Source of the DNA: Fidelibacterota bacterium
Lineage (GTDB): Bacteria; Fidelibacterota; Marinisomatia; Marinisomatales; JABMOV01
Reading direction: 5' to 3'
Assembly: GCA_046861395.1 (NCBI GenBank)
Contig: JBHHUC010000018.1
Location: forward strand, 1 to 36,071
Length of the DNA: 36,071 nucleotides
Made by a program: the position numbers
Shown here: positions 18,901-24,900 of the stretch, piece by piece
Numbering within the stretch: the stretch's first letter is position 1
Layout: every line of letters begins with the position of its first letter

Positions 18901-21900
18901 TGGATTCCACCAATGTAGTACAACCGGAATTATCTGTCATTACGCCGGTGGCGATGGATCATCAGCATATCCTGGGATTGACACTGAGGCAGATTGCTCG
19001 GGAAAAGGCTGGCATAATAAAGCGTAAAACACCGGTGATCACCGTTCGACAGAATAAGGACGTAGCCATGGTGATCCGGGAGACGGCCCACCGGAAGGAA
19101 GCATCCGTGATCCGGGTCCCGGTCCCAGAAGAAATTGAAGTCGTGGAAACAGCGACCCGATTTTTCTTGGCCGGTGAACGGTATTCCGTGGCACTTCCGG
19201 GGTATCATCAGGCAGAGAATGCCTCAATAGCACTGACCGTAGCCCGGACCTATCAGCCCCAAATTACCCAACCGGTCATACAAAAAGGACTGGATACCAT
19301 CCGGTGGCCAGGGCGTATGCAATGTTTGTCACGGAAACCGCTGCTCTATTATGATGTTGCCCACAATGCGCACGGCATCCATTCCATGCTACAGACGCTG
19401 GCGTCCATACGTCCCTCGAAGCCGGTAGGTTTGTTGGCCCTGAAAGGAGATAAGGATATAGTTGATATTGCCGGGGTTGTGCGAGGGAGGTTTTCCCGCC
19501 TGATAGTATCATCCCTGCCCGACGCCGATCTAATTCCGGCGGAGACCCTGGCCCGGGAATTGACGCAGCAAAAGGTTGATGTGGATGGTGTTCTCCCCTT
19601 TTCAGCCGCCATAACAGCCTTGGCAACTGCCGCTGGTCGGGACCGGCCGGGAGTGATATTTGGCAGTCATTATATTGGAAAAGCAGTATTTAGCGCGTTT
19701 GAATTTCCCTTTGACACGGGAAGGATTTAACGTAATTTACTTCTTCGGATTTTTATTCTCTTCGAAGGATATTTCGTTTAGCGCGCAATCCCCCACAAAA
19801 ACGTAAGTCTAAACCACAAGGTTTGTAAATGGATATTAATGAATTACAAGCCCTGAAAATCAAGGAATTGACCAAGCTGGCACGAGACTTGGACATCCAA
19901 GGATACTCAGGACTCAATAAGCAGGAATTAATTGTCAAGATTCTTCAGGCAAGCGTGGAGAAACAGGGAGACCTGTTTGCCCGCGGTACGCTGGAAGTAT
20001 TATCCGACGGTTACGGTTTCCTGCGCAGCCCAGATTTTAATTATTTACCGGGACCCGATGATATATATGTCAGCCCTTCCCAGATTAAACGTTTTGGTTT
20101 GCGCACCGGTCATCTCATTGCGGGACAGATTCGTCCGCCCAAAGCCAAGGAGCGGTTTTATGCTCTGCTGAAAGTCGATTTAATCAATGACCGACCGCCG
20201 TCGGAAATATCCAACGCCATTCTGTTTGAAAATCTTACCCCTACATTTCCGGAAGAAAAATTCAATCTGGAAGGGGACCCGAAAAATTTATCCATGCGGA
20301 TCATGGACATGATTTCTCCCGTGGGAAAAGGACAGCGGGGATTAATTGTCGCCCAGCCCAAAACCGGAAAAACCGTGCTGTTGCAAAAAATTGCCAATGC
20401 TATTCGTACCAACCATCCTGACACGAGAATGCTTATTCTGTTGATTGATGAACGGCCGGAAGAAGTGACTGACATGAAACGGAATGTGGATGCGGAAGTG
20501 GTGAGCTCCACTTTTGATGAACCGCCGGAGCGACATGTATCGGTGGCTGAAATGGCTTTGCAAAAAGCCAAAAGGATGGTGGAATTCGGTGAGGATGTTG
20601 TCATTCTGTTGGACAGTATCACCCGCCTGGCGCGGGCCCATAATGCCGTCATCCCCCATAGTGGAAAAATTCTTTCCGGTGGAGTTGATGCCAATGCCTT
20701 AAAAAAGCCGAAACAATTTTTTGGTGCCGCTCGTAATACGGAAGAAGGTGGGAGTCTTACTATTATTGCTACGGCTCTGATTGATACCGGCAGTCGAATG
20801 GATGATGTCATTTTTGAAGAATTCAAAGGAACTGGTAATCTGGAATTAGTTCTGGATCGTCGTCTGAGCGACAGACGTATTTACCCATCTTTCGATATTA
20901 TCAGGTCAGGAACCAGACGTGAAGAATTATTGTTACCCAAGAAAACACTGGGCCGGATGTGGATCCTGCGTAAACTGCTCAATGAAATGAATGTAATTGA
21001 AGCCATGGAATTTTTACAGGACCGTATACGGCGCACCAAATCCAATGATGAATTCTTGGATAATATGAACGGGTGACAAATCATTAGCAGATACTAACAT
21101 ATTCATGAGGTATAGTAATGGAATCAAAGCGTGTTAAAGTACCATCCGTTGCGGTAAAAATCGTAACCGATAAACCCGTTAAGAAAACCCCTTATCAGGT
21201 AAAAGGGGTCATCATGCGACAATTTCCCGATGAAGAAATTGTACCAATGCTGGATGGGCGGTACCGGGAAAAATTCCTTTATCCGCGGGTCCAGGTCAAA
21301 ATCCTGAATGAGCAGATTTATCTTCTTGGATTGAATGAAGGTGTGGCGCCCATAATGTCCCTGATTGATAAGTTTGACTTTCTTGATTTTGGCAACATTA
21401 CTTTTCAGGTTTTAGGTGCCGATGTAGATAAAAACGACAATCGGTTTCAACCGACCAATCGTCTGATCCGCTATCGTTTTATTACACCGTGGGTGGCGTT
21501 AAATCAGATTACAGGAAGTCGGTATCGTTTCTTGAACAATGCCGAAAGGGCCGTATTTCTTAATCGGCTGTTGGGACAAAACATTGTCTTTCTGGCCCGG
21601 GAAATGGGAATGGAAATTCAGAAAAAGGTATATACCAAGACATCCCTCACGTCCCTGTTCCCGAAACCGGTAGATGAACATAACTGGGGTGCTTTCACCG
21701 GTGAATTTCGTACGAACTTCGTATTACCCAACTATATTGGTGTTGGTAACGGTATTACCCGGGGCTATGGCACGATCTACGGCCTGTTCAATCCGGACAT
21801 GTTCCATTTCGATGAAGGCAACCTGTCCGAGGAAGCCGTCGATGACAGTGGGATTGAGGAAATATCGGAAAATGACACCGAACTGGAAGAAGTCAGTGTT

Positions 21901-24900
21901 GATGATGTTCCGACTCCTCGCAAGCGCCGTCCAGCCTCAAAAAAGAAGGGCCGTAAGGTTCTTAGCGAAGAATTCGACATTGAGGAAGAGGAAGACACCA
22001 GTGACGAAGACGCAAAGTTCAATCGCCCGGAATATCATTCCAAGCAACACGACTTTTAGGAACGGTCCCAGAGCATGTTTGCCGATCGAGTTGCGAAAAT
22101 TCGCCCATCGTTCACCCTTCAGATGGCCAGCAAAGCTGCCGAATTACTGGAGGCCGGCCGGGATGTTATCAATTTCAGCGTAGGTGAACCCGATTTCAAT
22201 ACGCCGGAGAATATCCGTCGTACCGCCCATGATGCCATAGAGAACGGTTATACGAAATACACGGCCGGACAGGGCATGATGGAATTGCGCCAGGCGATTT
22301 GCAGTAAATTTGCCCGGGAAAACAATCTGACTTACACACCGGATCAGGTGTTGGTTTCCAATGGCGAAAAACAGAGTTTATCGCTGGCCTGTCAAGCCCT
22401 GTTTCAGGACGGTGATGAAGTCATTATTTTTACGCCGTACTGGGTGTCGTTTCCGGAATTTGTACGGCTGGCAGATGCGACTCCGGTGTTGGTGCGGACG
22501 AATGCCGACCGACAATTTGAACCAGACTGGGACGATCTGGAACGGAACATATCACCGCGGACAAAAGGGGTGATCATCAATTCTCCTTCCAATCCCACAG
22601 GCGGCGTATGGTCGAATGAAGCCGTTCATCGTCTGCTCACCATTGCTGCCGACCAGAACTGGACCGTTATTGCAGATGAATGCTATGAACGACTGGTATA
22701 TGATGGCGTCTTTACCAGCGCGGAAGCGTTGAACGATGTGGGCGCAACCATCATTACATGCATGAGTTTATCCAAATCCTATGCCATGACCGGCTGGCGG
22801 ATCGGATATGCCGCCGGTGCAACCAGTATTATCAAAGCGATGAGTAAAATTCAGGGACAGGCCACATCTTGTGCCAATGCCATCGGCCAAAAAGCGGCGG
22901 TAGAAGCATTAACGGGCGATCAATCGGCAGTGGAAACCATGCGCCAGACGTTTCAGTCGCGGCGGGATATCATGATATCCCTCTTGCGGGCTATTCCGGA
23001 TGTGAAATGTGTGGTTCCTCACGGGGCTTTTTATGCCTTTCCCGATCTGTCCGCCTATATGAATAAAAAAAATGGTACCCGAATCATCAAAGATTCTTTT
23101 GCCTTATCCGATTATCTGTTGGAAATGGCCACGGTCGTTACGGTACCTGGGGACGGTTTTGGTGCCCCGGGACACATCCGCTTTTCTTTTGCCACCGGAG
23201 CGGAACAAATCCGTAGAGGAATAGAGCGGGTACAGAATGCATTACGTAAATTAGAGTAGTTACAGGAGTAAAGGATGAAACCGAATATCCATCCCGAATA
23301 CAAAAAAGGTACGGTTACCTGTGTTTGTGGTAATTCGTTTGAGGTTTACAGTACCGTTGGCGAACAGCGGGTTGAAATCTGCAATAAATGTCATCCCTTT
23401 TTTACCGGGAAACAGAAACTGGTTGATACCGCCGGACGTATTGAGAAGTTCAAGAAAAAATACAACCAGGCAAAAAAGTAGTTTATTAATCAGAGTATGA
23501 CTTCTCGATCCTCCAGTAGGCGGGAAGTCATTTTTCTGCCCATGATAAAGCGAATTTTACGAATTCTGGTTGCCAAGCCTACCATTCTGGTTGGGGGACA
23601 GGCTGTGATCGAAGGTGTCATGATGCGGGTGCCGGGGGCCTATGCTACAGCCGTACGTACTCCGGAAGGAACCATCTCAGTCGATCGTCACCCGTTTACG
23701 TCCCGGGCGGAAACGTCACGAATATGGAAATGGCCCGTATTCCGGGGTATCATCGGGCTGTTCGAAGCGATGAAAATCGGATTCAGCACCCTGCAGTGGT
23801 CGGCCGATATTGCCTTGCCGGAAGAAGAACAATCCGATAAGGACAACCGTTGGAGCAATGCCTTATCCACATTGTTTGCCGTGGTGCTGGCAGTGTCCCT
23901 GTTCATGATAATTCCCTACGTTCTAACCACCTATGTCTTTCATCTGGAAAAATCCGCTTTATCCTTCAATCTGATGGCCGGGCTGCTGCGCATTACCTTC
24001 TTTGTGGTGTATTTATTGATTATTTCACTACTAAAGGATGTCAAACGGCTCTTCATGAATCATGGAGCCGAACATAAGGTGGTATACAATTTTGAATCCG
24101 GCCGTGAAATTACGGTGGAAAATGCTCAGTCTTTTCAAACCCAACATCCCCGTTGTGGAACAAGCTTTATGTTTATTGTCCTGATGGTGGCGATTCTGGT
24201 GTTTGCCATCGTAGATACCATCGCCATGGCCATGGTGGGACAATTGTCGGTTCCGGTACGACTGCTCATGCATTTGCCTTTGATTCCACTGGTGGCCGGT
24301 CTGGCTTATGAAGGAATTAAGCTTTCTTCCCGGCGTGGCGACAAATTGCTGTTCCGTATTTTACGGGCTCCCGGTCTCTGGCTCCAGAACATTACCACTA
24401 GCGAACCGGAAGACGGAATGGTTGAAGTGGCCATCGTGGCTTTAAAATCGGCTTTCGGCGACCGCTTTAAGGAATTTGAAGGACGGAAATATCAGGCCGA
24501 GGCCGTCTGATGGAAGAGAAAATCAAGCAGATTATTGACCGTTACCAGTTGTTGGGTGAACAAATGTCCAACCCGGAGATTTATTCCGATCAGAAAAAAA
24601 TGAAAGAGCTGGCACAGGAACACAGCCACCTGAAAGAAATTGTCACCTGCGGAAAACAATATCTCGATGTTTCGGCTCACCTGAGGGAAGATCGGGAAGT
24701 CCTGGCGGGACAGGATAATGAGCTGAAGGAGTTGGTACAGGGAGAAATCCCGGAGCTGGAAGAAGAAAAGCGGGAACTGGAAGCCCAGTTGAAATTATTG
24801 ATGTTGCCCAAGGATCCCAATGATGACAAGAATATCATAGTAGAAATCCGAGCGGGCACCGGTGGGGACGAAGCTGCCTTGTTTGGGGCGGACCTGTTTC

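What a model noticed while it worked through the whole genome (the two positions that open the first line are those of the whole stretch)
21118..22059. CRISPR-less Cas6b homologue fixed between rho and an aminotransferase gene
g00273 is a full-length homologue of the CRISPR repeat endoribonuclease Cas6b, yet the genome has no CRISPR array and no other cas gene, and the gene sits in a conserved housekeeping slot directly after rho. I read it as a domesticated Cas6 that binds or cuts a chromosomal hairpin RNA of the host rather than pre-crRNA. That would be a case of a Cas RNA-processing enzyme recruited to cellular RNA metabolism across a marine phylum, and a compact sequence-specific RNA-binding module for tools.
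Evidence so far: Pfam Cas6b_N 9.5e-11 and Cas6b_C 9.1e-26; a profile of 17 family members hits M. maripaludis Cas6b 4z7k at E 2.2e-31 over residues 28-221, with the G-rich loop GxGxxxxRGYG kept but the His residues of the 'EEIVHNH' stretch of 4z7k replaced by Pro/Leu. No repeat array found by my k-mer scan of all 136 contigs, no cas Pfam row except a Cas4-like domain inside a helicase. Family in 65.9-73.7% of 232 Marinisomatales genomes against 1.1-1.2% of bacteria; 37 of 81 phylum genomes at E<=1e-5. rho - cas6-like - aminotransferase order in 5 of 5 relatives looked at; in the tables Rho_RNA_bind and Cas6b_N are neighbours in 138 of 232 order genomes and in 157 of the 1,725 genomes that have both. 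A ~90-re [...]
(Added by a program. Inside this text positions count along the whole contig: contig position 1 is position 1 of the stretch shown here. "Call 12" and the like, gene names such as g00115 and contig names such as C1 are that model's own, and its searches are not shown. The text may have been shortened before it was handed on; [...] marks where a part breaks off. The agent that wrote the report below was given it as the finding of a first reader that could run no searches.)

Follow-up and report, generated by a model that had tools for sequence, protein, structure and literature searches.

The report
Domesticated Cas6b gene travelling with rho
A protein descended from the CRISPR RNA-cutting enzyme Cas6b has lost its two catalytic histidines and become an inherited, strongly conserved partner gene of the transcription terminator rho in SAR406 (Fidelibacterota) bacteria, so a CRISPR part appears to have been re-used for ordinary RNA control in the cell.

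Summary
Confirmed. Window 21118-22059 encodes a Cas6b-fold protein (model pLDDT 93, Z 24.2 to 4z7k) in a genome with no array or other cas gene found. In 151 phylum genomes its homologues split cleanly. 44 lie directly after rho; 0 of 42 aligned keep the catalytic His pair. 16 lie elsewhere, mostly in type I-B operons; 14 of 14 full-length ones keep it. Three genomes hold both kinds. The rho-linked clade is monophyletic, follows the Rho tree, is found in 160 of 163 order genomes outside one streamlined genus (0 of 38), has dN/dS about 0.01-0.02 in the order, and was lost about five times. The fixed partner is rho, not the aminotransferase (36 of 44). No RNA target was found, and the REP-like repeats look genome-specific. 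Loss of His does not prove inactivity: basic residues remain. Best reading: a domesticated RNA-binding factor co-expressed with, and acting alongside, Rho (0.45). This scan found the same family before in seven other genomes; I found no paper on it.

The parts
18459..19730 (+). folC-like Mur-ligase-family gene, upstream member of the ancestral block
   Evidence: Pfam Mur_ligase_M and Mur_ligase_C; the name folC is my reading. Upstream of rho in many relatives with and without the cas6-like gene.
19711..19738 (+). probable sigma-70-type promoter of rho (-35 at 19711-19716, -10-like hexamer at 19733-19738), making the cas6-like gene the second gene of the transcript
   Evidence: Read from the sequence. 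The same pattern lies upstream of rho in 97 of 159 regions (no shuffle control). The consensus scan did not list it. Inference, not a mapped start.
19829..21076 (+). rho, transcription termination factor (415 aa)
   Evidence: Pfam Rho_N, Rho_RNA_bind, ATP-synt_ab; found in 144 of 151 phylum genomes.
21118..22059 (+). rho-linked Cas6b-like gene (313 aa, P0001), single copy
21139..21786 (+). double-ferredoxin Cas6b core (about residues 8-223)
   Evidence: Model pLDDT 93.2, pTM 0.88; Foldseek 4z7k TM 0.76; VIA Z 24.2, rmsd 2.4, 211 aligned; 92% identical in two same-family genomes, the highest of 15 neighbouring genes.
21244..21252 (+). P43-M44-L45, in place of the catalytic H38-N39-H40 of Cas6b
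   Evidence: His at these columns in 0 of 42 rho-linked and 14 of 14 type I-B sequences.
21739..21771 (+). glycine-rich loop (G208-G218); R215 kept, the Cas6b lysine replaced by N211
   Evidence: consensus from PMC5965381.
21787..22056 (+). order-specific charged tail (73-145 aa in 100 relatives) with conserved short motifs
   Evidence: absent or short outside the order.
21868..21927 (+). tail segment 251-270, predicted ordered (short strand and helix), possibly packing back on the core
   Evidence: pLDDT 83-88 in the full-length model; motif kept in 90 of 100 tails. Contacts could not be read.
22018..22056 (+). C-terminal motif (residues 301-313) with invariant Asn and His and a second His four residues on; candidate docking peptide
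   Evidence: Asn and first His in 100 of 100 tails, second His in 99; pLDDT about 50 in the monomer model.
22075..23259 (+). class I/II aminotransferase, usual but not obligatory downstream neighbour
   Evidence: Pfam Aminotran_1_2; 36 of 44 loci.
23275..23481 (+). rpmE (L31)-like gene, followed by DUF1385 and prfA
   Evidence: Translated; the names rpmE and prfA are my recognition, not a scan; DUF1385 by Pfam.

Best explanation
An ancestor of the phylum kept the cas6b gene of a type I-B-like CRISPR locus directly behind rho and lost the rest. The protein kept the Cas6b fold and basic cleft, lost the His pair and several residues conserved in CRISPR Cas6b, and is now a host RNA-binding factor with little or no cutting activity. 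It is made from the rho transcript and works with Rho: it binds a defined host RNA element and so protects that transcript from, or delivers it to, Rho-dependent termination. In this order a tail with a C-terminal docking motif adds a protein contact. SHOWN: fold, residue changes, monophyly, linkage, purifying selection, independence from CRISPR-Cas, repeated loss. INFERRED: co-transcription, RNA binding, low catalysis, the functional tie to Rho, direction of descent. My odds by step: non-CRISPR host function 0.9; binds RNA 0.7; mostly non-catalytic 0.55-0.6; works with Rho rather than merely sitting next to it 0.5.
For: Rho directly upstream in 44 of 44 His-less loci and 0 of 16 others, and in 80 of 80 GTDB loci (the best 80 of 232, overlapping the first set). 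Where the block broke the gene stayed with rho: 8 of 44 lack the aminotransferase (at least two events, f7 and f19/f24), and in L031-L033 neither folC nor the aminotransferase lies within about 3.7-5 kb. The rho-to-gene gap is only about 10-25 nt in f19 and f24. No terminator-like site lies between the two genes in the window. One side of a branch: 100/99 against 14 phylum I-B proteins, 97 among 176 rows. Distances follow Rho (Spearman 0.66, 40 genomes, pairs not independent). 160 of 163 order genomes outside f3. dN/dS 0.007-0.020 in 4 of 4 estimable order pairs, against 0.03-0.12 in 3 I-B pairs. His pair 0 of 42, Y47-equivalent 1 of 42, K186 0 of 42 and K211 0 of 42, against 14, 12, 14 and 14 of 14 in I-B. 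Core net charge stays positive (mean +4.6 in 22 rows against +6.7 in 110).
Against: No RNA target found. Rho does without it in at least five lineages. No Rho residue cleanly tracks the gene: the best, K/R371 (42 of 42 with, 13 of 40 without), was picked after the fact from 415 columns and is not significant on independent pairs (p 0.25). The whole block is syntenic anyway, and an unrelated cas6-first operon sits directly after rho in G041, so adjacency may be history. His-less Cas6 can be active through basic residues (PMC3652601), and K/R29 (42 of 42), R50 (38), R57 (35), K/R215 (42) are conserved here. Two f19 pairs have dN/dS 0.10 and 0.17, no lower than I-B Cas6b. The tree is unrooted; at the midpoint the family is sister to, not nested in, the sampled Cas6b.
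Confidence: 0.45

Rival explanations
1. It is a still-active, histidine-independent endoribonuclease that cuts a host RNA (processing or decay), using a cluster of basic residues as Sulfolobus Cas6 does; rho is a co-regulated neighbour.
For: SsoCas6 lacks His and cuts through K25, K28, K51 and R231 (PMC3652601 section 20). The family keeps K/R29 and K/R215 in 42 of 42 and has Y26 (35), R50 (38), R57 (35) near the old active-site loop. The RNase Y N-domain is missing from all 39 genomes of this class, where most carriers lie.
Against: In the nearest characterised relative the double His mutant loses most activity (PMC3479195). The Tyr and two invariant Lys are also gone. RNase Y absence does not track the gene: f3 and f10 lack both, f15, f22 and f24 have both.
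Confidence: 0.22
2. It is a host RNA-binding or processing protein whose job has nothing to do with Rho; it stays behind rho only because that is where the ancestral cas locus inserted and it uses the rho promoter.
For: The surrounding block is conserved with or without the gene: rho abuts or nearly abuts the aminotransferase in 16 of 40 loss loci. An independent cas6-first operon lies right after rho in G041. No Rho co-evolution signal passes. No Rho fusion was seen (weak evidence).
Against: Never seen away from rho in 44 plus 80 loci, and kept with rho when the flanks were lost.
Confidence: 0.18
3. It no longer binds RNA and acts as a protein-only Rho modulator (inhibitor or adaptor, like Rof, YihE, Psu or NusG; these names are recalled), through the remodelled core and the tail motifs.
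For: Loss of K186, K211 and S158 and gain of a hydrophobic stretch in place of H-N-H. Invariant C-terminal motif not ordered on its own core. Rho K/R371 in 42 of 42 carriers; it lies on the helix I recall as the NusG site, which one search did not confirm.
Against: The basic cleft and G-loop Arg are kept. The tail is confined to one order.
Confidence: 0.1
4. It is a stand-by Cas6 that processes orphan or incoming CRISPR arrays in trans.
For: G029 (one contig; no cas1, Cas7 or RAMP hit) has a 9-repeat orphan array of Cas6b type and only this homologue. Type III systems often use Cas6 in trans (PMC12669027).
Against: Only 7 of 201 order genomes show such arrays against 160 with the gene. cas1 in 10 of 44 carriers against 32 of 107 others. 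Carriers with I-B systems encode their own His-bearing Cas6b (G011, G015, G023). The G029 repeat equals that of the intact G011 system, so it looks like a remnant. Arrays assemble poorly, so the counts are lower bounds.
Confidence: 0.05

Closest known systems
Cas6b of Methanococcus maripaludis (PDB 4z7k/4z7l; Pfam PF17955 + PF17262), type I-B crRNA endoribonuclease
   Same: Full-length homology (E 6.6e-26), same fold (Z 24.2, rmsd 2.4 over 211 residues), G-rich loop, YP-x-x-Q-x-K and TPWxALN motifs.
   Different: No H38/H40, Y47 to F, two conserved Lys lost; no cas operon or array; fixed after rho; vertical inheritance; charged tail with motifs in this order.
Type I-B Cas6b of the same phylum (L043, L045, L046, L048-L060)
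   Same: Same family profiles; 24-30% identity in the full-length matches.
   Different: Keep H-x-H (14 of 14); cas genes within the fetched stretch in 12 of 16, the other 4 end at contig edges; separate clade; score about 100 bits higher on PADLOC Cas6 (2 tested).
Sulfolobus solfataricus Cas6 (Sso1437), His-less active Cas6
   Same: No active-site His; conserved basic residues; described as much chaperone as enzyme (PMC3652601).
   Different: Still processes pre-crRNA; distant (Z about 10-12 to the Sulfolobus-type entries).
Exapted CRISPR derivatives (type IV, STAND-linked I-E, haloarchaeal derivatives, repurposed repeats)
   Same: CRISPR parts re-used outside adaptive immunity (PMC8730458, 12 of 16 passages).
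   Different: Those passages concern multi-gene modules or RNAs; none describes a lone Cas6 fixed in a housekeeping operon or tied to rho.

Membership tests
Cas6/RAMP superfamily | duplicated ferredoxin (RRM) fold | tested here: met
   Model pLDDT 93.2; top fold matches are all Cas6, best Z 24.2.
Cas6/RAMP superfamily | C-terminal G-rich loop GhGxxxxxGhG with Lys or Arg | tested here: met
   G208-G218 with R215; K/R in 42 of 42; consensus from PMC5965381.
Cas6b (sequence family) | Pfam Cas6b_N and Cas6b_C over cut-off | tested here: met
   41.1 against 25 and 87.9 against 39.4 bits.
Cas6b (type I-B crRNA endoribonuclease) | catalytic His pair H38/H40 | tested here: not met
   P43/L45; 0 of 42 rho-linked against 14 of 14 I-B.
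Cas6b (type I-B crRNA endoribonuclease) | encoded in a cas operon with cas8b, cas7, cas5, cas3 | tested here: not met
   Housekeeping neighbours in the window and rho adjacent in 44 of 44 loci; no other cas gene found in G000.
Cas6b (type I-B crRNA endoribonuclease) | cognate CRISPR array in the genome | tested here: inconclusive
   None in G000, but it is 94% complete in 136 contigs; 7 of 201 order genomes have the tested repeat type; G029 has an orphan array.
Cas6b (type I-B crRNA endoribonuclease) | cleaves repeat RNA to leave an 8-nt handle | not testable with these tools
   Needs an assay.
His-less active Cas6 (Sso1437 type) | basic residues around the cleavage site | tested here: inconclusive
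   K/R29, R50, R57, K/R215 conserved; positions in space could not be read.
Rho cofactor or inhibitor | binds Rho or changes termination | not tested
   No complex prediction was obtained; needs prediction and assay.

The most novel reading that the evidence does not exclude
A CRISPR-derived, sequence-specific accessory factor of Rho: the Cas6b core recognises a host RNA element and the C-terminal motif docks on Rho, steering termination to or away from chosen transcripts. In its boldest form the two conserved tail histidines re-arm the old active site only when the tail is bound, coupling RNA cutting to Rho.
Probability: 0.25. Interest if true: 0.9.

Novelty: new variant of a known kind. Interest (0 to 1): 0.72.

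Why it matters
It is a clean case of one Cas protein becoming a core chromosomal gene, with the ancestral CRISPR form still present in the same phylum and even in the same genomes for comparison. If it acts with Rho it would be a new kind of termination factor in a widespread bacterial phylum (its abundance in the ocean is my recollection). It is testable now: a member is on record from the cultured Fidelibacter multiformis. In practice, public records already name some members 'CRISPR-associated endonuclease Cas6', so Cas6 counts in this phylum overstate CRISPR-Cas.

Tried and rejected
Expression: no RNA holder listed. RNA target: no conserved leader beyond promoter and ribosome site; leaders are T-rich and somewhat C-rich in carriers and non-carriers, folding z about 0 in 39 non-redundant carrier leaders; no Rfam hit in the window, L103 or L104; no synonymous-site dip in rho, this gene, the aminotransferase or rpmE over 74 genomes. 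A likeness of the rho ribosome-binding region to the 3' end of Cas6b repeats is confined to family f1 and was dropped; 26 scattered two-mismatch matches to that repeat end in G000 are not arrayed. C54 REP-like cluster as target: one exact 16-mer in 1 of 61 genomes, a single-pattern test. Rho co-evolution: N71 and K371 not significant. RNase Y as correlate: does not track. Fusions: one singleton joined to a RecD-like helicase, likely chimeric; only 568-2000 aa proteins and 8000 candidates were scored. No relative found in viral contigs or, for the basal P0017, in metagenome contigs, so the context of P0017 and P0021 is unknown. Tail search in the ESM Atlas gave only unnamed clusters under 0.9. 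Rows left out: L039 (frameshifted) and L044 (not extracted) from the 42-row counts; L058 and L060 (broken or partial) from the 14; 5 of 12 rho-linked dN/dS pairs were saturated; one search dropped near-duplicates and fragments.
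Full report
1. The observation. The ORF at 21118-22059 (+, 313 aa) lies 41 nt after rho and 15 nt before a class I/II aminotransferase. 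It passes both Pfam Cas6b cut-offs and matches M. maripaludis Cas6b 4z7k at E 6.6e-26 over residues 27-221. A model from 35 family cores has pLDDT 93.2 and pTM 0.88. It overlays 4z7k with TM 0.76 and Z 24.2, rmsd 2.4 over 211 residues. H38 and H40, whose joint mutation causes a drastic loss of activity, and Y47, whose mutation lowers it (PMC3479195, passages), face P43, L45 and F53. The gene is single-copy. G000 shows no array in two scans (three control arrays were detected in 121), no Cas1, Cas6_C, Cas7 or RAMP, and no match to 17 Cas proteins of relatives except this gene. The assembly is 94% complete, so absence is not proven.

2. Two paralogues in the phylum. Named relatives are Marinimicrobia/Fidelibacterota (one record is labelled Lentisphaeria and several only 'bacterium' or 'FCB group'). 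P0001 hit 56 of 151 phylum genomes in 63 rows; I examined all of them as 60 loci. In 44 loci, one per genome, rho is directly upstream on the same strand. In 16 it is not; 12 of these have cas8b, cas7, cas5, cas3 or cas4 in the fetched stretch and 4 end at contig edges, and 2 show arrays. His stands at the two catalytic columns in 0 of 42 aligned rho-linked proteins and in 14 of 14 full-length others. Among 142 representatives of at least 190 aa from the 1.84-billion search, 104 keep H-x-H; the top-scoring ones that lack it belong to this family. G011, G015 and G023 carry both kinds. The rho-linked proteins form one side of a branch (100/99; 97 among 176 rows). Their groupings follow the Rho tree. 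The root is not known. Descent from CRISPR Cas6b is inferred from the family's confinement to one phylum, not shown.

3. A core gene that can be lost. In the order the profile hits 160 of 201 genomes: 0 of 38 in one streamlined genus and 160 of 163 elsewhere. Among two same-family genomes the core is 92% identical, more than Rho (88-89%) or any of 13 other neighbours. dN/dS is 0.007-0.020 in the four estimable order pairs, 0.017 in f22, 0.10 and 0.17 in f19, and 0.03-0.12 in three I-B pairs; five pairs were saturated. Rho occurs in 144 of 151 genomes. A family profile added no new rho-linked copy. In 40 rho loci from non-carriers nothing matched the profile, and in 16 the aminotransferase follows rho directly or nearly so. 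Presence changes at least 6 times on the Rho tree, 5 forced by well-supported branches, which fits one gain and about five or more losses. The gene does not go with CRISPR-Cas: cas1 is in 10 of 44 carriers and 32 of 107 others (kin are not independent), and the tested repeat type is arrayed in 7 of 201 order genomes. The single-contig carriers G134 and G029 have no cas1, Cas7 or RAMP hit, though G029 has an orphan array.

4. The partner is rho. Rho precedes the gene in 44 of 44 loci and in 80 of 80 of the best GTDB loci (80 of 232 kept, overlapping the first set). The aminotransferase follows in 36 of 44 and 70 of 80. In L031-L033 both folC and the aminotransferase are gone from the flanks while the pair stays. 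A promoter-like pattern precedes rho in 97 of 159 regions (no control), and no terminator-like site separates the two genes in the window. Against a functional tie: the block is syntenic with or without the gene; an unrelated cas6-first operon follows rho in G041; no Rho column tracks the gene significantly.

5. Anatomy. Against 110 non-redundant H-x-H proteins, 22 non-redundant family members lost both His, K186, the G-loop K211 (now mostly N), S158 and G154. They gained Y26, G47, R50, R57, F158 and a T-D-x-P start. K/R29 and K/R215 are kept in 42 of 42 and the core stays basic. I infer a changed specificity on a surface still fit for RNA. Catalysis is open, since Sulfolobus Cas6 cuts without His by a network of basic residues (PMC3652601, abstract and section 20). 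In this order a 73-145-residue charged tail carries motifs kept in 90, 68 and 99-100 of 100 tails; the last has an invariant Asn and His and a second His four residues on, at the C-terminus (these tails are close kin). In a full-length model residues 251-270 are ordered (pLDDT 83-88) and the terminal motif is not (about 50). This fits one segment packing on the core and one free docking peptide.

6. Mechanism. Best reading (0.45): a largely non-cutting RNA-binding factor made from the rho transcript that acts with Rho on particular host RNAs. Rivals: a His-independent host endoribonuclease (0.22), a host function unrelated to Rho (0.18), a protein-only Rho modulator (0.10), in-trans crRNA processing (0.05). 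A non-CRISPR host role of some kind stands at about 0.9. No target RNA emerged. Binding to Rho was not tested.

7. Comparison and novelty. It belongs to the Cas6 superfamily and the Cas6b sequence family. It fails two tested features of the type I-B crRNA nuclease (His pair, cas operon), so I do not file it as one. Searches for a description: Cas6 with Marinimicrobia gave 1 listing, on another phylum. Three of Cas6, Rho, transcription termination and Marinisomatota gave 14 listings, none on this by title or abstract start. Solo, orphan or stand-alone cas6 gave 3 listings, and exaptation terms 13 listings. The 2025 classification has no main-text mention of Rho or the phylum (PMC12669027). The 12 of 16 passages seen of PMC8730458 describe other exaptations. 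Supplements were not read, and most subscription papers are not held. PMC5965381, PMC5741207 and PMC10600005 were seen as passages, PMC11652737 as a listing. This scan reported the same family in seven other genomes. My reading was set before I saw those notes, and they are not independent support. In the few lines shown they do not mention the repeated losses, the genomes with both paralogues, the retained basic cluster, the orphan array or the second cas6 insertion after rho.

8. Verdict. Real, well-supported domestication of a Cas6b with unknown target; new variant of a known kind; interest 0.72, rising to 0.9 if it proves to be a Rho cofactor.

Noticed in passing
L101:3391-11263 (G041): An unrelated cas operon (PF01881-type cas6 first, then a Cas7/DevR, a Cas5 and a Cas3-like gene) starts about 130 nt after the rho stop, a possible picture of how the ancestral gene arrived.
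   Followed up: partly
L185:10159-10809 (G029): Orphan 9-repeat CRISPR array, same repeat as the I-B array of G011, between an integrase/RadC and a DUF6079 defence-like island, in a single-contig genome without cas1, Cas7 or RAMP hits.
   Followed up: partly
phylum sample: The RNase Y N-terminal domain was found in 0 of 39 genomes of this class and 108 of 112 others; G000 has an RNase E/G gene.
   Followed up: partly
L061-L063, L100 (family f3): The streamlined 1-Mb genus that lost the gene has a longer Rho (428-439 aa) with an insertion after the N-terminal domain and a long branch.
   Followed up: no
G000 C54:23950-25100: Cluster of several kinds of short palindromes repeated at irregular spacing, REP-like, not CRISPR; one 16-mer has 7 copies here and none in 60 relatives.
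   Followed up: partly
G000 C6, C18, C46, C77, C78, C109, C110, C115, C126: A 10-copy hairpin-bearing repeat, often near contig ends, MITE-like.
   Followed up: no
L039 (G039): The rho-linked gene is split by a frameshift here: decay or assembly error.
   Followed up: no
L046, L050, L053, L056: An IS200-like (Y1) transposase gene sits directly beside the type I-B cas6b in four f21 genomes.
   Followed up: no
window 16272-18388 (- strand): A motA/motB-like gene pair plus a small gene upstream of folC, by my reading of the translations; not scanned.
   Followed up: no
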